Below, piece after piece: positions 1,326 to 63,674 of a stretch of 64,000 bases of DNA. The position numbers were made by a program, and so were the translations under genes. The DNA comes from Ginglymostoma cirratum (Eukaryota). The notes beneath the pieces were generated by a model. The model did no database searches, was not told where the DNA came from, and saw only the letters and a list, made by a program, of their open reading frames with translations. The first letter of the stretch is position 1, and each line of letters begins with the position of its first letter. The stretch is from assembly GCA_024137785.1 (NCBI GenBank), contig JAHRHZ010000067.1, positions 6,294,422 through 6,358,421 of the forward strand, given 5' to 3'.

Positions 1326-3184
1326 GCTTGCTGCACAAGTCACGTTGCCCACTGTGACTGCCAAGCAATTTTGCTACCAGCATGCCTGATGGGTACTCAA
1401 GTTTGAGCAAGAAACACCACAAGCAATTTAAACTACAGCATTAGCTAGGATGGTGCAGGGGACATTACCATGTCAGCTCAATCCACAGAATCAAAAAGTA
1501 GCCAAAAAAGTTAGAAGCAAGTTGTTAATACAGGAGTGGCATTTTAACTCCCAAATTGTATGGGGGAGCCACCATGACAGAATTTGGATTTTAACAGTTT
1601 GCATTTAGAACAAACTATGACAAAAATGCTGTGAAGTTGCAAATCATCTGTTCATTTATAGGTATTAGGAATTTTAGGCAGATTCATTGGAATGAAATCA
1701 GTATTTGTGACCAGCCTTATTTCACACCAAGCATAGATGCAATCTTATGGGAAAAGTTCAGTGGCTTCCTATTACCTCTGAATGGGAAGAGGTCACCTTT
1801 CTGCTTCTCATGTCAGGGGAAGCAGCCATTAAAAGCTCACTTTGGGGGAAAGTGTGTAACAGTCAGATCTGGATTTCATGCAATTAGCCAATTTAGTGCT
1901 TAGTGTTGACAAGCTGTTCTAATGGGATGAATAGGAGGAAGAGTTACTTCAAGCCATCTGTACCTCCTACACTAGCTCCTGTGGGGGACATAATTGGAAC
2001 CAGGTAACACCATTAATACCAGGCTTAAATGCCAAGCTAGAGTTTCAACCATTACTTGCACAATGAGTTAGAGACTTCCAAACAGATGTTCCTTAAAAGC
2101 AGTGGGACTACTTCAGAAGTGGTATTTATTGGTTTGATCCAATACTAAAGTAGAAGGCCTTTCAGTATGCCTGGGAAATGCAGCTGTGTCCTTAAGCTAC
2201 AGCCACTGGGAAGTCAGTTTTACCTGCAGTACATTCACTTTAAACAGGCTAGTGCTTAAAGAGTAAGATCACTGCTTAATTGCAAAAACTGGCTTTTTCC
2301 AGAAGTAGGTACCTCTAATTGGTGTTAAGGGATCAAAACATGAGTTCCCTATTTCAAAGGGAAAATTGCTAGCTAGAGGAAGAGATTAGTTTAAAGTTTG
2401 TACATTCATAGGAACAGAAACCAGAGAACTGTCAATTTTTTTTTTATTTGCATAGTTTAACTTCATTCAACAATACATTTATAAACCTCATTTCTACAAT
2501 TAGACTGAGAACAGTTTAAACAAGCAGGGCAGGAACATTGTTAATTACAGAAGTCTAGCATTAAGCCAGAGACTAGAGATTCCTCCAAAGCAAGTCTTTG
2601 GAATGTCAAAGAGGCATTGGTTAACAGTTCTTATTGCCAAGAGACTTGCTTGGTAAGAAGTAAGTTCTTCATACAAAAAGTCATCTAAACCCCATTGTTT
2701 AATTAGATACTGCAGTAGCTCCCACTGAAAAAGTCAATTCAACCAGTCATTGAGAATAAAGGGTTTACAACATTTAAATCTTATACACTTGAATAGTGAA
2801 TTCTGAATATCACAAGCTCAAGACATGGGCATTTGTTTGCAATTCCAACAGAGTACTAGTCCACAGATCAAGGCCAACACTAGTGAAGTTATAGCTGCTG
2901 CGAGGAGAACACCATCAGTTGTTTTTGCTGCAAGAGAGGTTAAGTGCAATGAGATTATGCTCAAAACCAATAGTCAGTTGTCCATGATCCTATGGCACTC
3001 ACCCCAATACTATCCACCTCCATAACAGAAAACATCACACAAGCTTTTACTTCATTGATCCATGCCTCAAACCCCCAGTTTAAGAATTTCTCCAATTCTG
3101 GAGAGTTTAAGACATCCAACATATCACAACAGGAACTGGAGCTCTATGGCCAAGTTTAGAAGCTTGAAACATGGCATTAATTCA

Positions 3185-4033: not shown

Positions 4034-7000
4034 CTGTGTACAAGGTGGCAGGAAGTAAGGCTAATAGCAAGCTATTATCCTAAAGCCCAATTGTAGGAGT
4101 GTTGCCACTGGACACAGCAGTTGAACCTTAATCTGCTCTTTCAGAATACTTTAAGCCAGCTAATCAGTTACTTTTGCTTGTGAATTAACATGCAATACAT
4201 TTCATACCATTTGCCTGGGATAGGTCTGCAGTTTTTCCTTCAGCAAGAGCTAAAACTATGGGTCTCTTCAGTGTCACTAATCCATGGTAGGCAGCTTTAT
4301 CATCTGAAGTGTTAAAGTCTGAATGTCTGGCCATTCCTGGGCAGGAGGAAAGAGGAAGTTTGTAAGATGAAGCTAATCGAAATAAAGTTTACATTTTAAA
4401 AATCATTAATGTTTCTTACTTCTGCCAGCACCACAGGTTGTGGCACACTCTTGCATGTCAGGTAGAGGGCACACTGTTACACTACAGTGAAAGTAGACCT
4501 ATTAAAAAAAGAAGAGGTAAGCACCAGAAACCAAGATAATTGAACAAGATGAAAGAAGCACAGACACTAACCTCTCCACTTAGTACTGTTTGAATCTGCT
4601 GGTTCCAGAATGTAAATGTCTTCACTTCAAACCGTTTGTGATGTGTTGGAAATGACAGGTTGGAAGCTGCATCTACTGCATGTAGCTGGGTCAAGTAGTT
4701 GTCCTTGTAATATGGGCACCTACAAAGGAGATGCAAGTGTTTCATTAGAAGGTGAAAGCACAGATTGTATGAAGTAGTATGTTTCTTAGGAGTGAAATGG
4801 AATACAAGTGTGACAAATATTGCATTAGTGGGTAGGATGGGAATTTAGATAATTAGAGTTTCATTTGTAATTCCTTGCACAAATCTGTCTACAAAGATAA
4901 CAAGGTTTAGAGCTGGATGAATACAGCAGGCCAAGCAGCANNNNNNNNNNNNNNNNNNNNNNNNNNNNNNNNNNNNNNNNNNNNNNNNNNNNNNNNNNNN
5001 NNNNNNNNNNNNNNNNNNNNNNNNNNNNNNNNNNNNNNNNNNNNNNNNNNNNNNNNNNNNNNNNNNNNNNNNNNNNNNNNNNNNNNNNNNNNNNNNNNNN
5101 NNNNNNNNNNNNNNNNNNNNNNNNNNNNNNNNNNNNNNNNNNNNNNNNNNNNNNNNNNNNNNNNNNNNNNNNNNNNNNNNNNNNNNNNNNNNNNNNNNNN
5201 NNNNNNNNNNNNNNNNNNNNNNNNNNNNNNNNNNNNNNNNNNNNNNNNNNNNNNNNNNNNNNNNNNNNNNNNNNNNNNNNNNNNNNNNNNNNNNNNNNNN
5301 NNNNNNNNNNNNNNNNNNNNNNNNNNNNNNNNNNNNNNNNTGCTGCTTGGCCTGCTGTATTCATCCAGCTCTAAACCTTGTCTGATTCTCCAGCTCCTAT
5401 CTTTTAGGAAAAACCTTGAAACAAATGCATTTATCATCAAGTCCTTGCTCTGGTTAAGAGCCTAGGTTATCTCAACTGTTGATTTATGTTGCTAGCTTCA
5501 ATAACCCCTTCTGATTGAAAGGGCCACTGGATTTGAGTGCTGGTGGTGATTTAACTGCATCTTTAGACAAAGTGCATTTAAGCTTTTCATTAAAAACAGC
5601 TAAAAATTGTGTTTATGGGTAACTGGAACACTACAGGACAACTTTAAAAACTGCATTTTGGGAATCAAATTAAGCATTAGAGGCCTTCACTGAGTAGTGA
5701 AGTTGACCAAATGAGTGGTCAAAGGTCAAGTACTGAGCATCTAAGCTAATGCTTTTGCATCACGGACAGAAAGTCAAAAGGCTAGCATGAAGCCTGTTGG
5801 CAGGACTTTCCATCTGAGGTTGGACAGTATGCACTTGTCTGCTAGTTCCACAAAAAGCAAATACTTGCCCATGCAGGAGAACGCTCCACCTTGGGGCATG
5901 ATGAGGGTCAAGTGTTTGTGTTGCCCAGCAATCATTCAGCACTAGTTCAATATTGGGATCAGTTCGGTGGAGCAGGCGTACTTCCACATATACTGGCTCC
6001 CTGAGAAATTTCACTAGAGGGTAGTCTTCATCAGCAAACCAAGTACTATAGGACTTTTCTGCAGGAGAAAGTAAATAGTGAGCAACAAATAAAGAACTTG
6101 TGCAGTTCTCTAGATGCAACTAGACTTACCCTTTGCAATCCTCATTTCTATTTGGAGGACACCCTCCCTCAATATGGAAGGCAGGGGTGAAGCAGTATTC
6201 ACTACTAGTGTCAAAGGGATCTCTCTCTTGCCAGAGAAGTGGCATTTCACATGCAACCTAGGAAAACAGTATTAGTGCTTCATATTAAAGTGTCATACAA
6301 GTCATTTAAATACTACAGTTGACCAGAAAGACAACAGTACATGCTATTCACAAGGTGCATACAGGAATCTTTGCTCAAGGACAGCTTTGAGATTAGTTGG
6401 AGTGGAGGAATGATGCTTTAAATGGAGCTGGCTGTTCCCATTTCACTGCCTTCAAGAGATTAATCTTAGAACCAAAAAGGATGTAGCAAAGTACAATATC
6501 TAGAAGGCACTTGAGAATTATGCGCCCATTGAGGACAGGAACTTCATTTTTGGCACCATGCTTAATGTGGGATGTTGAGTGAATTGTAACATGCAGGCAC
6601 TGTTCAGTGCATGGACTAGGAACTTCAGGGTCAGGTTGCTTACAAAAGTCATCAAGATAGTGGCCTAGGTTTGAAGTGATCATGTACATGATTAACAAGA
6701 AAATTTATAGATAGGGATAAACTGAAGTTGGCAAGAGAATCAGCCATGTTGTGTGAAGTATTTAAAACCCTGAAGTTAAAGAGAAAGCTGTGTTTTGATT
6801 CAGTAAAATGTTGCTGCTACAAAAATGTTTAGAGCTCACTTGAAAGTACTCTCCCTGGTTATAGAGCCACGAGGTCCACTTTGCATTTTCCTTTTGGAAA
6901 CTATATCTACACTGTAAGTGATGTTTAGTCCATCACCCTATGGAGAGAAAAAGTACATGAGGATATGATCAGTGGTTCCCCTAGTTATTCTCTCTCGGGG

Positions 7001-10000
7001 GCGCCCACCCAAGAAAAAGAAACTTACTATTTGTGTAGTCCCACACGAATCAAGAGGAAACCTGAAGAGGATGAACTCAGTTGTCCTGGTTATAGGGAGA
7101 CACTGAGGACTTGTCTTATTCAGCAAAGAGACAGAATCAAGGTCGAGTGCTGGCACAGTAGCAGCCCTAGGTACCACAATGGTAAATAGCCCATTGTGGG
7201 AACAGTCAATATAAGCTGGGCAGAAAGATATTGTAGTTAGTAAACACCACCAGTTAAGTGCTGCACAAATAGGTTTACTATTGCATTCATCTGAAATTAA
7301 ATTCTCACTATAATCCAAGTCTAGAACTGGCATTTAAATCAAGCTTCTTTCTGTAGAGATCAGCCTTCACTAAGGAAAGTGAGTCTGGTCAGCTTTAAAT
7401 TGGAATTGTAAGAACTAATGCCCACATTAGGGGCATTTAAACAGTCCTTGGATAAGGATGATGGGATAGTGTAGGGGATGGGCTTAGATTAGTTCACAGG
7501 GCAGCATAACATTGAGGGCTGAAGGGCCTGTTCTGTGCTGTATTGTTCTATGTTCTAATAGAATAACTATGGTGTTTGTACATGAGGCTAGAACAATTCT
7601 TGATTAAAAGATTTGATTACAATCTTGCCAGTTAGAACAAAAACCAACCAGTTTTTCCATAAAAGCATGGAATTTGCTTGATGGGATCATAACAGCAGCC
7701 TTTGGCATTGCATTCTTCAAGTGTGACATTTCCACAGTTCACACGGTCCTTGGCATCAACATCACAAATGTGGGTTTTGTCTGCAACAGGGACAAGTTTA
7801 GTGAACCACAAGCAGTTAAAAACCAAACTAGATGCCTAGGGTTGTGTTCTGGTCTTACTTCAGATATCCTGGTCTAGAAGGCCCATTGGGGAGTGATAGC
7901 AAGTAATTAAAAAGCTTTGTTACTAGTTAACTTGATCTGGAATTACTTCCACCTGTTCAGAAGTTGAACACCTCCAGGTTAGGTGATATTTGAACCAGGA
8001 TCTTCTGGTTTGCAAGTGCTACCAGACTCCACAGTTCATGCAAAAACCTGATTAGTAGTTAGCATGTTATGCTAAACATTACATAATCCATGTCCAAAAA
8101 TTAGACAACTCATGAGTAAACTAGAGAGAAGCCAACTTAAGTTGCACTTCTAGAAGAAGTTATCAAACTAGGCTCATTGACTGCTGGGCACAGGAATGGT
8201 GAACATCAGGTAATTCAAGTGCCTGCCTATCTGATTCAGGCTGGGTCACTAGACACCTAAATTCTGTCTTTAAAGTCTCATGGGTGATGCCATCATTTTA
8301 CTGAAGTTTTGGGATTTTATCTAGGGTAGCAAGTTAATGCTGGCTTAATTTGCATATCATACCTCCATCTGGTTTCAGGTCCATGCTGATTGAGGTAGCT
8401 GTGGAACCAGCTGTTGTCTGTCCCACAAGTGGGATTGTGGCAGTAGCACTCACTGGCTCCTTGGTCAATGGGGTGGCATCCACTGGCTCCTTTGTTACTA
8501 GAACAGTTGCAGTGGTATTCACTGGCTCCTTGGTGGAAAGNNNNNNNNNNGTGGTCACTGCAGTGGTCTTCACTGGCTCCTTGGTTACTAGGGCAGTTGC
8601 ATTCACTGGGGCAGTCACTGCAGTGGTCTTCACTGGCTCCTTGGTGGAAAGAGTCACTGTGGTGGTATTCACTGGCTCCTTGGTCAGTGGGGTGGTCACT
8701 GCTGTGGCGTCCACTGGCTCCTTGGTGGAAAGAGTCACTGTGGTGGTATTCACTGGCTCCTTGGTCAGTGGGGTGGTCACTGCTGTGGCATCCACTGGCT
8801 CCTTGGTGGAAAGAGTCACTGTGGTAGCAGCCACTGGCTCCTTGGTCAGTAGGGTGGCATCTACTGGCTCCTTGGTGGAAAGAGTCACTGTGGTAGCAGC
8901 CACTGGCTCCTTGGTCAGTAGGGTGGCATCCACTGGCTCCTTGGTGGAAAGGGTCATTGCAGTTGTATTCACTGGCTCCTTGGTTATTAGGGTGACAGTC
9001 ACTGGCTCCTTGGTGGTCAGAAGGGTTCCTTTTGTGGGTCCCACTGTTGGGGAAAGTTATAACAGTTAGGATAAAACCAGACTGTCTTTGTAGAGGGGAT
9101 TATGTAGTTATGAACATTTGGCATGTGGGGTTACTATTGAGTAGTCAGAAATTCTGGTTCCACAGGAAAGTTTCTCCTTGTAGGGCCAAGATCAGATATG
9201 CAGCTACTGTAGAAAAGAATGGGGGAGGAGGGAGCTTGTTATTCTGATATAGCCAATTCAGTCACTGACCATTTATAGTGGTCAAAAGGCCAGATATGCA
9301 GGTGTTTATAGCTCTATCCAAACCTTATGGTAGATACAGTACTGCAGGCCTTAAAGACAGCCTGCGAGTACAGCTTTGTTAAATTCAACTTGAGGCCAAT
9401 TGAGAATAGTACAGCAGTAGGACCCAAAGTTTGAATGCTTTTTGGAGGACAGCAAAAGCTACCATTTTAACAAGCAGACTAAAGGCTACCATGTTCAGGA
9501 GATTGAATTGAGAACTAGAGACATTTACATCAGAAAGAGTCTGGAGCTGGCTTTAACCCTTGCTCTAGATATAGAGAAATATTTAAGTTAGTCTACATTA
9601 GCAGTGGTAAAGTGGTCACTGACTTGAGACAGCTAATGTTTTAAAGAGGTTAATAGAATTAAGAACCAAGACTATAACCCTTTCAGATCCTACCAGGGAA
9701 TCACTTGATCGATCATTGTGCTCTTGGAGAGCACAGGCAAGGCCAGATGAAGCAACGAGTGTAAAGTCAACTAGGCACAATACACAACTGATCCAGGACA
9801 ATGGACAAGAGCAAGTGTTTCAAAGCAACAGAATCTGACTTCTACACAGGGCAATGGACCATTAGCTTCTTGTACAGGAAGAAGTTAGTTTTGTGGTCAA
9901 AGCCTTTGGGCAAACCTACCGGTCACAGAAGCCAGTGATGGCAGGGTACAGCTTAATGGAATGCGTTCTATGACCATAATCCTCCTGGATGCATCAATTC

Positions 10001-12517
10001 CATCAATCCTCAGCTCCAGGCTCACTGTGTTATTCTAGAGGGAAGAACATTTAATTGCTATTAGATTAGAGCAAAACCCTTTAGGAGTCTTGAAGATCAG
10101 CACTAATGTGACCAACCATCATTCTCTAGCTGGGAAGAACAAGTGGTTTCCATTCTCACTTGGAGAAAGAATCTTCTGTAATGCCTATCTTCCCATTCAA
10201 TAGAATGGGACCCCCTCAATGGGCTATGTTGAGGCTCAACTACAGTTGCCTATTACACAACCATATCAAGTCCACCACTAGAAGTATTAGATTGCTACCC
10301 AATAGCATTGAGTAGAACCTCCTCTAATATTGGAAGAGTGGATTCTGTCACTACATTCCCAAGAATGGAGGGGATCACTGACAATGGTAGATCTGAGCAC
10401 TCCAAATCTTCATGCCCATGTTTACCCACATGAACTTCAAGTCACACTGCCTCCTATCACAGGAAGGAGTCAGTCCAACCATCTCATCCACCCAAGAGCT
10501 TTATAGAGGTGACTAATTCAATGCAATCCTAGCCAATTGCCAGGAATTCCTTTTAACTGGCAAGAGGGCTATGTAACCACATGACCCACAAGGAGCACAA
10601 GATTACAGTATCTCCACTATTGGAGAATGCACATTTAATTGAGTTCAGCCTCATCACCTTTCTGCAAAGAAAACCAAGCTTTAGTTGTCCAATCACTCTG
10701 GATGTGCTGCCATTTGTTGCAGCAATGGCATTAAGATATTGCCATCAAGATGTTTCTGGCTATTTCCAAATCCACAATACATTAATAGAATTAAATCCTG
10801 TACTTACCAGGAGGTGAACATAACATCCTTTGTATGGAGTACTGAAAAGCAAGGACCCATCTGCTTGTGGTAGAATTGTATATGGACAGCTGCTGGGCAG
10901 TGAATGCAGGTCTCTTGGTATGCCATAGTTATCTATTTTAAAAAAAACAAACAAACAATTTTTAATCCAGGTGCAAAGGCAGTTTGAGCCAAACACGTTG
11001 TCTGGCTTGGTCACCTTTGCCTTTCTTCTTATCCAAGTTAGGACAACATACAGTCACCATCCAGCTCAGTACTTAGTGGACACAATTCTGTGTCCAGGGC
11101 CATGAGGCAGCCAGCAAGCTTCTCAGGAAGAGAAGGACATGGAGCACAAGTTCCACGCTTCCTGATCCTCAGTGCCAGGACCCATTCATGGTGTTCACAA
11201 TGAACAAGCATGATAGTTTAACTGGAGGAATGGGAATTGAAGGGGACATATTTTCAGTCTTAATGACGGCTGCAACCAATATCAAGCCAAGGATCAGAAG
11301 AAAGTAAGGCATGGAATTGGGGGGTGGTGGGGTGGAGTGGAGTGGAATCAGCCTTGATCTTATTCATCAGGAGGAGATCAGGCCCAAGTTAATTGGTGCA
11401 TTAACTCAGCAAGCTGAATAGAGGCAAAAACAATACAGTTATTGTTTTTCTATCTTTAAAGGCACTGTATAGAATGATAGATGGTGTTTCAACACAAGGT
11501 CCAAAACCTCACTATTTAGTGAATGGGCATATATTCAAACCCAAATGGAGGAGTCAAATAATCTTCCCAAATATCCCTTATTCACTGCAGGATGGAAATC
11601 TACAGAACTATTGACTAGGAAATCCCATTCTAGACCTGGAAAGTATTATTTCCACATACATCATTGTCTGAATGAAGGGCATTTTATAAAATTAAAACAA
11701 AAGAAGCCATTTAAGACTACCAAGATTCTTGTATTAGACCCCTATTTCAAAGAAAAACCCACACATTACATCCTTCAAAAGGTTAGTTTTAACCTAGAGC
11801 CAAAGTAGTTTGGCTTTGGATAGTCCTTCTGGCACTAAGTGCCAATTACAGCCAGTATAAGCTCAGTCAAAAAAGTTAAAAATGGGCCTACAAGTGAGCG
11901 TTGAAGCACACCAATAGCAAGGGATATAGTTTTCAAATAACAAAGAGGGGACTCCTAACATGGTGAGTGAAGACTTCATCTATTACATTGGACGAGAAAG
12001 GCAGAAGTAGTTAGAGGAGAGCTTTGGTTTAGCGGAGCAACTACCAATCCCAGTTTATACAATTTAATAGAGGCGTTTTGCAATAGATCACAAGCATCTG
12101 AGGATATTTGTTATTATAGATTACACTAGGCAAAAAAAAATAAAAACACCTCAATTGGAGAAAGGTAAATCCCCAAAGTGCACAATTAATTTTTTAAGAG
12201 GATGGTAGAGGCAGACGTATAGCGGAACACGAACTGAAAGGGTTTAAAAGTAGTTGGGTGGGGAGGCACTTGTTTCAAAGCATCCCCCATTGCTCAGAGC
12301 TTCATGACTTACCCACAATTGACAATCGAATGAACATCCCTTGAAACGAGTCATTGCGAATCCGCACCATAACTCCAGACGGCGCGCAAGTGATCTCCTC
12401 AGGATAGTCAAAATATCGCACTGAGCCGTAGCTCGGGCGCCCCCGAGGAGAATCGAGCGTCCTGACCCTGAAAGGGTGACTCCAAAGCAGCAGCAGCAAT
12501 AGGAATAAGAGCCCCAT
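3945..12517 (-). CDS. ZP4: ZPB-subfamily (ZP1/ZP4-like) zona pellucida/egg-envelope glycoprotein, 13 coding exons: 12313-12517, 10808-10932, 9920-10034, 8363-9043, 7649-7780, 7028-7215, 6840-6937, 6130-6257, 5869-6058, 4572-4719, 4420-4498, 4208-4336, 3945-4033. ZP1 vs ZP4 orthology unresolved
   Basis: Phase-consistent hand splicing (2307 nt incl. stop, 10-N gap included). Signal peptide MGLLFLLLLLLWS, ZP-N1, trefoil GCCYD, ZP motifs FRFPLDSCGT, GSITRESTF, LREPVYVEV, DCWAT, GCPY, VYFHCSVTVC, furin site RRMAR. Confidence 0.92.
4208..4336 (-). CDS. ZP gene exon 12 (furin site and external hydrophobic patch)
   Basis: RMARHSDF...GLVTLKRPIVLALAE; phase 1-1. Confidence 0.82.
4420..4498 (-). CDS. 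ZP gene exon 11 (ZP-C end)
   Basis: VYFHCSVTVCPLPDMQECATTCGAGR. Confidence 0.9.
4572..4719 (-). CDS. ZP gene exon 10 (ZP-C)
   Basis: CPYYKDNYLTQL...FPTHHKRFEVKTFTF...LSGE. Confidence 0.92.
4895..5400. mobile_element. Palindromic Penelope-derived insert spanning a 400-N assembly gap (ZP intron 9)
   Basis: 41-bp perfect inverted repeat at 4900-4940 / 5341-5381; same family as 1158-1325. Confidence 0.7.
5869..6058 (-). CDS. ZP gene exon 9 (ZP-C), ends in a GC donor
   Basis: EKSYSTWFADEDYPLVKFLREPVYVEVRLLHRTDPNIELVLNDCWAT...VLLHG; GG|gcaagta. Confidence 0.92.
6130..6257 (-). CDS. ZP gene exon 8 (ZP-N end, linker, ZP-C start)
   Basis: LHVKCHFSG...GVLQIEMRIAK; donor gtaagt. Confidence 0.9.
6840..6937 (-). 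CDS. ZP gene exon 7 (ZP-N)
   Basis: GDGLNITYSVDIVSKRKMQSGPRGSITRESTF; donor AA|gtgagc. Confidence 0.9.
7028..7215 (-). CDS. ZP gene exon 6 (ZP-N)
   Basis: IDCSHNGLFTIVVPRAATVPALDLDSV...FRFPLDSCGTTQI. Confidence 0.92.
7425..7557 (+). mobile_element. CR1 LINE 3' end
   Basis: gcatttaaacagtccttggata...gggcctgttctgtgctgtattgttctatgttcta tail. Confidence 0.6.
7649..7780 (-). CDS. ZP gene exon 5: trefoil (P-type) domain
   Basis: ICDVDAKDRVNCGNVTLEECNAKGCCYDPIKQIPCFYG, six Cys. Confidence 0.92.
8363..9043 (-). CDS. ZP gene exon 4: Thr-rich mucin-like TKEPV tandem repeat
   Basis: Open frame with 15 TKEPV units; acceptor tttccccaacag, donor G|gtatga, phase 1-1; 10-N gap at 8541-8550. Confidence 0.8.
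9920..10034 (-). CDS. ZP gene exon 3 (end of ZP-N1)
   Basis: NNTVSLELRIDGIDASRRIMVIERIPLSCTLPSLASVT; phase 0 to 1; donor gtaggt. Confidence 0.82.
10808..10932 (-). CDS. ZP gene exon 2 (ZP-N1)
   Basis: DNYGIPRDLHSLPSSCPYTILPQADGSLLFSTPYKGCYVHLL; ag acceptor, gtaagt donor. Confidence 0.88.
12313..12517 (-). CDS. ZP gene exon 1: signal peptide and start of ZP-N1
   Basis: ATG at 12517-12515, Leu-rich signal peptide, ITCAPSGVMVRI, donor G|gtaagt. Confidence 0.85.
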
Positions 12518-61000: not shown

Positions 61001-62228
61001 GCATTAAACCAGAACTACACATCGTTCTTTGTGAAGTAATCTAACTAGTTTGAACTGAACCATGCCATTACACAAGATTGTTACATTTACCACTTCCTAT
61101 TTGCAACAGAGTTCTCCAAAAGGAAGGTCAAACCATAGAAGCCTCAAACTGGAACTTATTTTAAGAGCTGTGCATTCAAAGATCACAGAATTACAACTTA
61201 CTTTGCTACAAAATGTTGGGCAATATCAAAATTTGCATTTTACTTTAAAAAACACAGGCAACATGCTAAAATGTATATCACTGACACTAAGTCCGTACTG
61301 CCTTTCATATCAAAATGCATATCCTGCCCTTGCTGCATCACAAAAAAAAGGACTATCCTTAAAAGATAGAGTTTCCTTCCTCGTGATGAATTAAGCACAG
61401 ATCAGGGATGGAAACTAGGGTAGCCTGTTTCGTTTGGCTTAACTACTTGTTGACCAATCCACTAACCATTTTGGGGAGCACAATATATTTTGAAAGTTAA
61501 TTACTGCTTGGCCATTCTAGTTAATTATAATCCGTCAGCAATGATTTAGGGAGGCTCTCAAAGTTTCATTGCTGGCACTGACCTATTCTCCAATATCACA
61601 AATAACATATTACCCAGAAGAGAAAACTGAACCAAGAAAATAATAGAAGCAGGCTTACTTTTCATCAATTTGTCTGATAGGCCTTTCAATCCTGTTTGAA
61701 GGCCATGTCCTTTCGATGCAGGTTTTTGGGATTCTTGACTTGCTGGGCCTGTTTGAATGGTTATTGCTCTTGATGCCCCAACATGCAATGGATTCAAATC
61801 ACTGCCACCCTGATTTAATGAGTGATTTGGAGAGGTTTTATTTTGTCCAATGCAGCCCAGGCTTGTGGGCTCTGAAACATTAAGTTTAGCACCACTAGAA
61901 ACTGGATTACCCTTTGCCTCCAGCTCAGGAGACACGGAGGAGTCAAGCGATACCGGTACATCAACATCACACCGTCTATTTGCAGGGGATGCAGGTTCTG
62001 CTAAAGAGCTATGCTTTACTGTGTTCAGGCTGTGGGCTCTGATGCGAGACCAGCTTGTGGAGCGGAAACTTTCTGCTTCCAACCAGAATTTAACCAAATG
62101 TTCAACTCCTTGCATCTCCATGAACTGGATGATATACGGGAGAGCAGTGCTATCCTGCAGGACTTGTTCAAGAGTCTTTGAGAGTCTGGAGTTAGTCTCT
62201 TCAGCTTTATAATTCAGGCAAGAATGAC
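31061..62228 (-). CDS. AKAP10: A-kinase anchoring protein 10 (D-AKAP2), last 12 coding exons; 5' exons lie beyond the window end
   Basis: RGS motifs LVKFWLEAESF and ILQFWLAADNF, PKA helix EEMAWRIAKMIVNDVVQQ, C-terminal STKL; all junctions GT-AG and in phase. Confidence 0.97.
31565..32392 (+). mobile_element. CR1 LINE 3' fragment
   Basis: LYRALVRPLLEHCVQFWSP...RLRGDLIEVYKIMRG; TFKRHLD. Confidence 0.9.
33900..34256 (+). mobile_element. HE1-type V-SINE
   Basis: ctcagtggttaacattactgcctcacag...gactgtctgtgtggagtttgcacattctcc. Confidence 0.85.
35215..36810 (+). mobile_element. Old fragmented CR1 LINE interrupted by a palindromic insert
   Basis: AEIVYALVVIFHNFLESGIIPVD (CR1 RT start); 3' tail near 36700-36800. 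Confidence 0.65.
35747..35986. mobile_element. Palindromic Penelope-derived insert with two opposed hammerhead-like motifs and a 12-bp TSD
   Basis: Arms 35796-35881 / 35891-35975; catttttaaatt at 35747-35758 and 35975-35986. Confidence 0.8.
37222..38090 (-). mobile_element. CR1 LINE 3' fragment
   Basis: LQRDLDQMGKWAEDWQMQFNTDKCEVLHFG; VQFWSPCYRKDIIKLE. Confidence 0.9.
38314..38409 (-). CDS. AKAP10: AKAP10 penultimate exon (PKA-R binding helix)
   Basis: AQEEMAWRIAKMIVNDVVQQAQSEPLVAKSTK. Confidence 0.95.
38490..38577 (-). mobile_element. Truncated Penelope-derived insert lacking the hammerhead core
   Basis: Same family as 16040; ctagtttca duplicated at 38490-38498 and 38569-38577. Confidence 0.65.
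39165..39460 (+). mobile_element. Degraded Deu-domain SINE
   Basis: ctgagtcagaagc head; aaagatccc; aacatcataaaaacagatt. Confidence 0.5.
41593..41645 (-). CDS. AKAP10: AKAP10 exon
   Basis: GSMFSQAMKKWVQGSTDE. Confidence 0.93.
42329..42411 (-). CDS. AKAP10: AKAP10 exon
   Basis: RMTFGKINELGQFIRESEPEPDVKKSK. Confidence 0.95.
43400..43509 (-). CDS. AKAP10: AKAP10 exon
   Basis: HGTRKATVKILKNFDEAIVVDAASLEPESLYHRTFAG. Confidence 0.95.
43615..44760 (-). mobile_element. Old CR1 fragment split by an HE1 SINE (about 44095-44420)
   Basis: SINE ggaatcgaacccaggaccctggtgctgtcaggcagcagtgctaa; flanking CR1 gtggtgcccagaatt and aaattcat. Confidence 0.7.
45542..45718 (-). CDS. AKAP10: AKAP10 exon
   Basis: VYLPGFLSSNLYYKYLNDLIHSVR...SDGSAAQ. 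Confidence 0.93.
46607..46751 (-). CDS. AKAP10: AKAP10 exon (RGS2)
   Basis: YFSLQATHPLGFDDTVRLEIESNICREGGPLPDCFTTPLRQAWTTMEK. Confidence 0.95.
47306..47442 (-). CDS. AKAP10: AKAP10 exon (RGS2)
   Basis: YMEKEEAVNILQFWLAADNFQAQLAAKSGQYDGQEAQNDAMILYD. Confidence 0.95.
47755..48085 (-). mobile_element. CR1 3' tail
   Basis: aggccatttggcccatcaagtctgctctgccattcaatgagatcatggctgatctg. Confidence 0.7.
49800..50570 (+). mobile_element. L2 LINE 3' fragment
   Basis: VRNLGFTF...HISTVTKTAYFHLCN, an L2 RT C-terminal motif. Confidence 0.7.
50928..51051 (-). CDS. AKAP10: AKAP10 exon
   Basis: HFTEFLRSHHFCKYQIEVLTSGVVYLADILFNESALFYFSE. Confidence 0.95.
55405..55570 (+). mobile_element. Deu-domain SINE fragment
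   Basis: cagtactgagggagtgctgcac...aaacgctaaaccaagg...aaaagatccc. Confidence 0.6.
56600..56684 (-). CDS. AKAP10: AKAP10 exon
   Basis: KICGEDGQADPNCFVSAQAVVYVMMEK. Confidence 0.95.
57320..57675 (-). mobile_element. CR1 3' fragment
   Basis: tggcccatatccctccaaacctttcccattcatgtatctatccaaatgtcttttaaac. Confidence 0.75.
58312..58410 (-). CDS. AKAP10: AKAP10 exon
   Basis: IERDAVNIFTKYISPDASRPIPIIEAMRNDIV. Confidence 0.95.
60033..60677 (+). mobile_element. Possible solo LTR
   Basis: TG...CA ends, internal AATAAA near 60534; TSD not convincing. Confidence 0.3.
61659..62228 (-). CDS. AKAP10: AKAP10 exon (equivalent to human exon 4; RGS1)
   Basis: GHSCLNYKAEETNSRLSKTLEQVLQD...KFWLEAESF...LSDKLMK. 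Confidence 0.95.
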
Positions 62229-63674
62229 CTATTTAAAAACAAAAACATGAAGAGAGAGTAGCATGGACTCTTTATTTAGTAAGAAGGTATATCTGAACTG
62301 AAAGATTCTGTAGCAAACCAGGATAGACCACAGGAGGCAAGAATATTTCTTCAGTACCATATGTTGGTTACAATCCAATGAACATTCAATATTGTACCAT
62401 AGCCCCCTCCCTGTTAAAAAATAACAATCCTGTGTAACTGTGAAATGATTCCCATCAATTATTGGTGGGTACAGTACAGCCACCATTATCCAGGATTCAA
62501 AAAACATTTCTTAAAGTATAAGGCCTACTTTTGCCTGTGAAATGGAGCATTTGTAGGAAGCTCCTCTTACCTTTGCGATAATGCATGATGAACTGGTAAA
62601 ATGAGATATGTTGCACACCAGTCACACTGCAGATTACCAAACCCAACCCTTGGGAAAATGCCAAAGTGGAGGTGGCACACTGCCAAATGCAACAAATGTG
62701 ACAAATTCATGTTGCCATTTTTTTTAAATATAGGTCCAGACCACAGCTTGCATCCAGTAATTCTTCAATGTCTGACCTTCTAAGGATCTCTCTGCATACT
62801 TCACTGCAGACAGCTGGATACTTTCATCTCTCATTGTAAAAGGTACACATACAACAGTTATACAAACAGCTGGTTGCAATGAAGCATGAAGTGAGTTTTT
62901 CAAAAATTAAGAGAATATAACACAAACGGGGAGAAAGAATACAAAGTTAAATCTCGATCTACTGTACACTGCCAAGGTATTGCCATATTAAATTATACCT
63001 TCATACGTTCTTGTCTAACATTATGAAGTAGCAATTCTTTGGCTTATCATGAATTTCCTTCCAAATAAATATGCAAAACTTGAAATGCCACGAATTTACA
63101 ATTGTTTCATCTCCTCACGCAGTCAGACATACACAACAAAAATATCTAAAATTACTCTTGAATTCCCAAGGGCAATAAAAATAAAGATAGCTCAGGATAT
63201 AAACTTAACATCACAATATCCACCATTCAGGGTGGCCTCTCGTTGTCATTTCCATGATTCCCATAAAGTTGGACCTACCACCATCTGTTGTATCATTCAA
63301 AATATATAGAAGATGGTCATAAAAATATTTGATATCATGCTTTCCGGACAATATTAAAATTTAGCCATCAAGAAATCCATATTTTGAATTTTGTCGATAG
63401 TTAGCTTCTTTAGAAGTAACTCATTAGCTGCTTTGGATTGGGCTTCATTCACTTTCTAAGCTTAGCCTGCTATGGGGTATAACCAATGAAAAAGAAAAAA
63501 TTGCTACACAAAAACTATTTATTGGTTGTCTCCTCTTCTGCTCCACTATCCATAACATACTGCTCATCACCAGAACACCCCTACCATATGTACTGTTGCA
63601 CATTAGGCTTCTGGATTTACAGCCATAAATGGCATGTTCTCAATATTTAATCTAGAATTAATATTTCTCACTTA

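What the first reader, a model, noticed from the sequence alone, without database searches (positions are those of the whole stretch)
8363..9043. Lubricin-like TKEPV mucin domain inserted into an egg-coat ZP protein
One symmetric (phase 1-1) exon between ZP-N1 and the trefoil encodes at least 15 TKEPV units with Thr-rich spacers, higher-order 23-aa and 27-aa duplications, and five N-x-T sequons. Known ZPB insertions are Pro/Gln-rich (avian ZP1, teleost choriogenin H), whereas this repeat tract has no Gln and recalls the KEPAPTT mucin repeat of lubricin/PRG4. Inference: a glycosylated, hydrated or lubricating brush on the envelope of a large yolky egg, or regularly spaced Lys acting as transglutaminase amine donors. 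The internal N gap suggests the array is longer and may be a polymorphic VNTR.
Basis: partly seen in the sequence, partly recalled or inferred. Interest (0 to 1): 0.7.

Follow-up and report, generated by a model that had tools for sequence, protein, structure and literature searches.

The report
Shark egg-coat protein's mucin-like stalk
This shark gene of the egg-coat (ZP1/4) family carries a long threonine-, valine- and proline-rich repeat, also present in other sharks and a sawfish, at the spot where birds and reptiles have a different repeat of likely separate origin; it is likely sugar-coated and would act as a spacer in the coat of large yolky eggs.

Summary
Window 9043-8363 (minus strand) is exon 4, phase 1-1, of an intact 13-exon ZP1/4 (ZPB) gene of a carpet shark. 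It encodes 15 TKEPV units, 69- and 81-nt duplications and five N-x-T sequons. A long Thr/Val/Pro insert fills this slot in database models of 6 of 7 other shark and ray species (81-628 aa); the electric-ray model lacks it. RefSeq labels some models 'mucin-like'. The unit differs by lineage; only a P-x-[N/D]-x-T core is shared. The lubricin likeness is a KEP tripeptide limited to carpet sharks, and the catshark array has almost no Lys, so a transglutaminase-donor role is not conserved. The gene lies outside tetrapod ZP1 and ZP4 and lacks the ZP1 cross-link cysteine. Bird and reptile ZP1 carry a Pro/Gln repeat in the same slot, proposed as a molecular spring; trees reject grouping the two lineages, so the expansions are likely convergent. 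Best reading: a glycosylated spacer holding ZP-N1 off the filament. Expression and glycosylation are untested. New variant of a known kind; interest 0.45.

The parts
12313..12517 (-). Exon 1: ATG, hydrophobic signal-peptide-like start, beginning of ZP-N1 (Cys1)
   Evidence: GT donor, phase 1; N-terminus matches whale and zebra shark proteins
10808..10932 (-). Exon 2: ZP-N1 middle (Cys2, Cys3); no ZP1-type extra cross-link Cys
   Evidence: PF22821 E 1e-4, below the curated cut-off as a lone exon; Cys count
9920..10034 (-). Exon 3: end of ZP-N1 (Cys4), ends in phase 1
   Evidence: ZP-N1 94% identical to whale shark
8363..9043 (-). Exon 4: Thr/Val/Pro/Ala-rich repeat linker, 15 TKEPV units, 5 N-x-T sequons, phase 1-1
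8541..8550 (.). 10-N assembly gap inside the array; likely hides at least 40 nt
7649..7780 (-). Exon 5: trefoil domain (6 Cys)
   Evidence: PF00088 E 1.1e-10
6130..7215 (-). Exons 6-8 (7215-7028, 6937-6840, 6257-6130): ZP-N and interdomain linker
   Evidence: PF23344 E 6.3e-9 on exon 6
4420..6058 (-). Exons 9-11 (6058-5869 with GC donor, 4719-4572, 4498-4420): ZP-C
   Evidence: PF00100 E 1.5e-16 and 1.4e-5
4208..4336 (-). Exon 12: completes the furin-type site RRMAR; C-terminal propeptide
2818..2927 (-). Exon 13: transmembrane helix, short tail, stop
   Evidence: Hydropathy maximum 2.75 at residue 746; helix in the whale-shark model

Best explanation
[quoted passage not shown] Steps: (1, shown) intact 775-aa ORF with ZP-N1, linker, trefoil, ZP module, furin-type site and transmembrane helix. 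(2, inferred from the family) the membrane-anchored precursor is made in the ovary, cleaved, and co-polymerises with ZP3 through its ZP module, with the trefoil and N-terminal region sticking out of the filament. (3, predicted) the linker is disordered; dense O-glycans on Thr plus N-glycans stiffen and hydrate it, giving roughly 55 nm here and 110-155 nm in relatives at 0.25 nm per residue (value recalled). (4, inferred, weakest) ZP-N1 at the tip contacts another filament non-covalently or meets sperm, so the linker sets mesh spacing and gives slack as a very large oocyte grows, like the spring role proposed for the avian ZP1 repeat.
For: Gene model with canonical phases and no stops. Insert in the same slot in models of 6 of 7 other elasmobranch species, with matching non-repeat flanks. 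Unit diverged but make-up kept: T+V 33-43% in 8 of 8 linkers, versus 0 of 14 long linkers among 64 non-elasmobranch ZP-N1+trefoil proteins reaching 30%; no Cys in the 8 linkers. Asn sits in strict sequons in window 5 of 5, Chiloscyllium 15 of 16, catshark 22 of 23, sawfish 24 of 27 (units are not independent). Whale-shark model: ZP-N1, trefoil and ZP folded, linker 147-216 almost all under pLDDT 50; the model matches chicken ZP1-N1 6gf7_B, TM 0.85 over the target. All 12 catshark RefSeq isoforms keep 213-482 aa of linker; a zebra-shark isoform joins this exon to exon 9; both suggest transcript support (inference about the annotation pipeline). Trefoil and N-terminal region protrude from the filament (10.1101/2023.06.21.544075). 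Spring role proposed for chicken ZP1 repeat; chicken ZP4-N1 dimerises non-covalently (PMC6626044). Bovine ZP4-N1 binds sperm (PMC8775842).
Against: The Narcine model joins exon 3 to the trefoil exon with a 12-aa linker and the whale-shark model has only 3 units in 81 aa: either the stalk is dispensable or these are assembly/annotation losses. N-glycosylation is not universal: sevengill copies have 0 and 2 strict sequons because most are N-A-T-P, zebra shark 3 in 429 aa. S+T is only 13-14% in sevengill shark, low for a mucin. No cross-link Cys, so the tether step lacks a known anchor. No expression, glycan or localisation data for any shark were found.
Confidence: 0.5

Rival explanations
1. Tolerated repeat expansion: the slot between ZP-N1 and trefoil is a permissive linker in which a coding minisatellite expands and contracts with little effect, selection only keeping frame and disorder.
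For: Length 12 to 628 aa across species; unrelated repeats have arisen in the same slot in bird, snake, turtle and elephant-shrew ZP1; very recent duplications at 99% identity; two sevengill copies 98-100% identical in folded parts differ wholesale in N versus D.
Against: Insert kept in sharks and a batoid whose folded parts are 63-71% identical, with a shared P-x-[N/D]-x-T core and steady T+V content while units diverged; Asn nearly confined to sequon positions.
Confidence: 0.2
2. Lubricin-like hydrated brush: the glycosylated repeat mainly lubricates or hydrates the egg surface.
For: 32% Ser+Thr with alternating Lys and Glu and near-neutral charge in this species; filament N-terminal regions are exposed.
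Against: No KEPAPTT-type unit; Pro 10% versus about 31% in lubricin's mucin domain; no somatomedin B or hemopexin domain; Val-rich; KE pairs absent in catshark, sevengill and sawfish; no other array of the 15-nt core in this genome.
Confidence: 0.15
3. Lys residues of the repeat are amine donors for transglutaminase hardening of the envelope.
For: Lys every 10-14 residues in most of the array; 6-9% Lys in six of seven species with the insert; teleost envelopes harden by Gln-Lys cross-links in Pro-Gln-Xaa repeats (PMC10140178).
Against: Catshark linker has 0.4% Lys; Gln at most 2.7% in all linkers, so acceptors would have to lie elsewhere; the paper read calls this use teleost-specific; dense glycans would hinder access (inference).
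Confidence: 0.05
4. The repeat is intronic or a minor exon, and the main mRNA joins exon 3 to exon 5.
For: Skipping keeps the frame; the Narcine model has exactly this junction.
Against: Good splice sites; all unit lengths away from the gap are multiples of 3; protein-level conservation of both exon ends across sharks; all listed models of six species that span this region include it.
Confidence: 0.05

Closest known systems
Avian and reptile ZP1 (ZPB1) with Pro/Gln-rich repeat (PMC6626044, PMC4475693)
   Same: Same order of domains with a long tandem repeat between ZP-N1 and trefoil; the chicken repeat is length-variable (one cDNA has an extra 24-aa unit).
   Different: Repeat is Thr/Val/Pro with N-sequons; chicken's has no N-glycosylation site and bird and snake linkers have 0 strict sequons. 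No cross-link Cys. Separate clade, AU p 0.003. Avian ZP1 is liver-made; the site of synthesis here is unknown.
Tetrapod ZP4 and basal ZP1/4 proteins of lamprey, lungfish and sturgeon
   Same: ZP-N1 with four Cys only, trefoil, ZP module, furin site, transmembrane helix.
   Different: Their linker is 9-24 aa in the seven measured; the shark gene adds a whole exon and forms its own chondrichthyan clade with the chimaera gene.
Teleost choriogenin H / ZPB
   Same: Trefoil plus ZP module with a low-complexity repeat in front.
   Different: No ZP-N1; Pro-Gln-Xaa repeat used by transglutaminase and hatching enzyme.
Lubricin / PRG4 and mucin PTS domains
   Same: Thr/Pro tandem repeat containing Lys-Glu-Pro (carpet sharks only).
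   Different: No KEPAPTT unit, no somatomedin B or hemopexin domain, far less Pro, more Val, N-sequons; no sign of homology.
RefSeq models XP_048468741.1 (whale shark), XP_038670698.1 (catshark), XP_051891486.1 (sawfish), XP_067864438.1 (sevengill shark)
   Same: Direct orthologues with the same insert; the zebra and bamboo shark models are auto-named 'mucin-17-like' and 'mucin-2-like'.
   Different: Automatic annotation only; units and lengths differ; no description found in the papers searched.

Membership tests
ZP1/4 (ZPB) egg-coat subfamily | Trefoil immediately before a ZP module | tested here: met
   Pfam on exons 5, 6, 9, 10; 6 + 4 + 6 Cys
ZP1/4 (ZPB) egg-coat subfamily | N-terminal ZP-N1 domain | tested here: met
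   PF22821 on whole orthologues, E 1e-8 to 1e-10; fold match to 6gf7
ZP1/4 (ZPB) egg-coat subfamily | Signal peptide, furin site, C-terminal transmembrane helix | tested here: met
   RRMAR and hydropathy peak; signal peptide by inspection only
ZP1/4 (ZPB) egg-coat subfamily | ZP module groups with ZP1/4, away from ZP2 | tested here: met
   Trees rooted on ZP2
ZP1/4 (ZPB) egg-coat subfamily | Expressed in ovary or liver and built into the egg coat | not testable with these tools
   No reads could be laid; catshark expression supplement unreadable
Tetrapod ZP1 | Extra cross-linking Cys in ZP-N1 (chicken C66) | tested here: not met
   0 of 8 elasmobranch versus 8 of 8 tetrapod ZP1 sequences
Tetrapod ZP1 | Falls in or next to the ZP1 clade | tested here: not met
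   AU p 0.0029 under two models; groups were named after earlier trees had been seen
Tetrapod ZP4 | ZP4 clade and short linker | tested here: not met
Lubricin / PRG4 | KEPAPTT(P/T) repeat | tested here: not met
   0 KEPAP in 8 of 8 sequences; definition from PMC13067954
Lubricin / PRG4 | Somatomedin B and hemopexin domains | tested here: not met
   Pfam on 6 orthologues shows neither
Mucin-type PTS domain | Ser/Thr/Pro-rich tandem repeat without Cys | tested here: met
   S+T 32%, P 10%, 0 Cys here; S+T 13-33% across species
Mucin-type PTS domain | No folded structure | tested here: met
   pLDDT under 50 in the whale-shark linker; the other aligned rows give little signal there, so this is weak
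Mucin-type PTS domain | Dense O-glycosylation | not testable with these tools
   No O-glycan predictor or proteomic data available
Choriogenin H transglutaminase substrate | Pro-Gln-Xaa repeat | tested here: not met
   Gln 0-2.7% in all linkers

The most novel reading that the evidence does not exclude
Sharks and rays evolved, independently of birds and reptiles, a molecular spring in the same slot of a ZPB protein to let the egg coat stretch around giant yolky oocytes, but built it as a glycan-stiffened array whose N-glycan load is dialled by a one-base Asn/Asp switch in a P-x-[N/D]-x-T core that spreads through the array by concerted evolution (from almost none to about 25 sites), with ZP-N1 linking filaments without a disulphide.
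Probability: 0.2. Interest if true: 0.68.

Novelty: new variant of a known kind. Interest (0 to 1): 0.45.

Why it matters
I found no description of chondrichthyan egg-coat proteins in the papers searched. [quoted passage not shown] If the repeat is a spacer, two lineages with very large eggs converged on the same slot with different chemistry, which makes the untested spring proposal for avian ZP1 testable by comparison of array length and glycan sites with egg size. The fast-changing array could also serve as a species marker. It is not a new kind of system.

Tried and rejected
RNA evidence: no RNA holder was listed for window 5800-8400, so no reads were laid; this is no evidence either way. 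ESM Atlas: window sequences not held; no usable hit for the sawfish repeat. Single-sequence fold uninformative, pLDDT 35. Pfam Lysostaphin_N hit on the repeat (E 4e-10, 40 bits against a cut-off of 60) rejected as a low-complexity match. Alternative His/Cys/Gln-rich open frame of the exon rejected: wrong splice phase and not what the orthologue models encode. A donor array elsewhere in the genome: the 15-nt core occurs 13 times in the exon and 5 times singly in 4.36 Gb (about 8 expected by chance, my arithmetic). A bony-vertebrate orthologue with the same insert: the 979-aa Pelobates hit is two genes fused in one model and the 1000-aa teleost hits have extra ZP-N-like domains and Pro-rich linkers. 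Universal N-glycan array: rejected, sevengill sequons are mostly N-A-T-P (that Pro after the sequon lowers occupancy is recalled). Chimaera orthologue models lack the N-terminal region, so the age of the insert beyond elasmobranchs is open. Promoter: 5 E-boxes in the 250 nt before the ATG against 1.4 expected, a CCAAT at -100, no exact oestrogen element: too weak to use. Earlier findings of this scan: none. Ten paper searches found no description of this gene or insert; subscription papers on fish ZP evolution are outside the library, and the supplements of PMC11979771 (unreadable) and PMC6262864 (not asked for) may list the gene.

Full report
Observation. The region 9043-8363 on the minus strand is a 681-nt exon with an AG acceptor after a pyrimidine tract and a GT donor, phase 1 at both ends. 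It translates to 226 codons with 15 TKEPV units of 10-20 aa, five N-x-T sequons, 28% Thr, no Cys and one Gln outside the array. Two adjacent 69-nt blocks match at 68 bases and two 81-nt blocks at 80. It is the only tandem array in the window. The 10-N gap at 8541-8550 is a placeholder; its two flanks are 40 nt apart at both other places where they occur in the exon, which keeps the frame and suggests at least one missing unit (inference).

The gene. Thirteen exons from 12517 to 2818 give an open 775-aa protein; twelve introns, one with a GC donor. Pfam finds ZP-N1 (PF22821), trefoil, ZP-N and ZP-C on the expected exons. A furin-type RRMAR and a transmembrane helix close the protein. Dropping exon 4 keeps the frame. 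The closest proteins are from whale shark and zebra shark (92-95% identical in the folded parts), so the source is a carpet shark. An AlphaFold model of the whale-shark orthologue on a 60-row alignment folds all four domains and leaves the linker (147-216) almost all below pLDDT 50; Foldseek matches medaka ZP1, mouse ZP2-C and chicken ZP1-N1 (6gf7_B, E 4e-6).

Relatives. Three searches and one cluster look-up gave orthologue models in seven other elasmobranch species. Six carry a long insert in the same slot: whale shark 81 aa, zebra shark 429, bamboo shark 628, catshark 482, sevengill shark 428 and 584 (two copies), sawfish 468. The electric ray Narcine has 12 aa, with exon 3 joined straight to the trefoil. 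Units differ: TKEPV in carpet sharks, VPVTHVPANAT in catshark, VKPV[D/N]ATPG in sevengill shark, VVKPANDTTP in sawfish. What they share is P-x-[N/D]-x-T and a T+V content of 33-43%; none of 14 long linkers among 64 non-elasmobranch ZP-N1+trefoil proteins in hand reaches 30% (these come from the best 150 of 758 hits plus the other hits fetched, not an exhaustive set). In this exon N and D differ by one base, AAT or GAT. Nearly every Asn is in a sequon. By the strict rule (no Pro after; recalled) the counts are 5 here, 15 in bamboo shark, 22 in catshark, 24 in sawfish, but 3 in zebra shark, 1 in whale shark and 0 and 2 in the sevengill copies. Shuffle p-values there are inflated because units are copies. 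All 12 catshark RefSeq isoforms keep 213-482 aa of the linker and differ only inside it; whether that reflects splicing, alleles or misaligned reads is unknown.

Family placement. On the ZP module, window gene, elasmobranch orthologues and the chimaera gene form one clade (100/100), outside the tetrapod ZP1+ZP4 clade (173, 41 and 29 rows; the smaller sets were picked by hand from the first; redundant isoforms and multi-module proteins left out). Forcing it together with ZP1 is rejected, AU p 0.0029 under LG+G4 and LG+C20, with the caveat that the groups were named after seeing trees. This agrees with PMC6262864 (parts 1-2 of 5 and passages read), which places chondrichthyan homologues outside ZP1 and ZP4. 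The ZP1 cross-link Cys defined in PMC6626044 (passages and sections 12, 13 read) is in 8 of 8 tetrapod ZP1 and 0 of 8 elasmobranch sequences. Lamprey, lungfish and sturgeon proteins have ZP-N1 with a 9-24-aa linker, the likely ancestral state. This genome also has a second, short ZPB (signal peptide, trefoil, ZP; G000:C44) without ZP-N1 or repeat, with relatives in chimaera, Narcine and horn shark.

Lubricin has somatomedin B, KEPAPTTP repeats with about 31% Pro, and hemopexin (PMC13067954, passages). Here KEPAP occurs 0 times in 8 sequences, KEP only in carpet sharks, and the genome holds no other array of the core: the likeness is a local coincidence. Transglutaminase use rests on Pro-Gln-Xaa repeats in teleosts (PMC10140178, passages); catshark has 0.4% Lys and no linker exceeds 2.7% Gln. 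The slot itself is a known repeat hot spot: Pro/Gln repeats in bird, snake and turtle ZP1, and a Ser/Pro repeat in an elephant shrew. Chicken's repeat has no N-sites, self-associates and varies in length (PMC4475693, passages).

Mechanism. In solved egg-coat filaments the trefoil and what precedes it protrude from the core, and human ZP1-N1 hangs on a long flexible linker (10.1101/2023.06.21.544075, passages). The chicken repeat was proposed as a spring that stretches as the oocyte grows. The shark linker most likely does the same job with other chemistry: a glycosylated, extended spacer. What ZP-N1 does at the tip is open: chicken ZP4-N1 dimerises non-covalently, human ZP4-N1 does not, and bovine ZP4-N1 binds sperm (PMC8775842, passages). 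That shark eggs are very large and yolky is general knowledge, not from a call. I give this 0.5, a tolerated expansion 0.2, a lubricating brush 0.15, transglutaminase donor 0.05, skipped exon 0.05.

Novelty. The orthologues are in RefSeq, some auto-named mucin-like. Ten searches and passages of PMC5932020, PMC8455134, PMC1845163, PMC11979771 and 10.1101/2023.01.12.523848 showed no account of the gene or insert; the library lacks most subscription papers, and unread supplements may list it. It is a new variant of a known kind: a probably convergent repeat linker in a ZPB protein. Interest 0.45.

Noticed in passing
P0006 and P0064 (Heptranchias perlo models): Two copies of this gene, 100% identical in ZP-N1 and 98% in the C-terminal part, one with 24 P-x-D-x-T and 4 P-x-N-x-T units, the other with 38 N units and 1 D unit: array-wide homogenisation of a one-base change.
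   Followed up: partly
G000:C44:336759-342227 (loci L017-L018): Second ZPB paralogue: signal peptide directly followed by trefoil and ZP module, no ZP-N1 and no repeat.
   Followed up: partly
G000:C112:40235717 and 40265584; G000:C244:53991: Two near-identical ZP genes 30 kb apart, most like ZP2 among the queries used, with assembly gaps nearby; and another ZP gene that looks ZPAX-like (label recalled).
   Followed up: no
window 5868-5869: GC donor on exon 9 (GC-AG intron); the C112 copies also read GCAAG at this exon end.
   Followed up: no
window 4900-5381: 400-N gap flanked by a perfect 41-base inverted repeat of a repeated element, inside intron 9; likely an assembly artefact.
   Followed up: partly
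window 61561-62232 (minus) and G000:C67:6283438-6284460 (plus): Neighbours: an exon with a weak RGS-domain hit (E 0.0015), AKAP10-like by recall, and a coiled-coil ORF, CCDC92B-like by recall (no Pfam hit).
   Followed up: no
P0105 (Rhynchocyon petersi ZP1): 289-aa Ser/Pro/Gly/His tandem repeat between ZP-N1 and trefoil in a mammal.
   Followed up: no
P0001 (Stegostoma isoform X2): Model joins the repeat exon directly to exon 9, dropping trefoil and ZP-N; such a product could not form a whole ZP module.
   Followed up: no
G000:C44:316200-316860 and G000:C112:40254163-40254586: Other tandem arrays (about 36-nt and 29-nt units) next to assembly gaps near the paralogues; no link to coding exons seen.
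   Followed up: no
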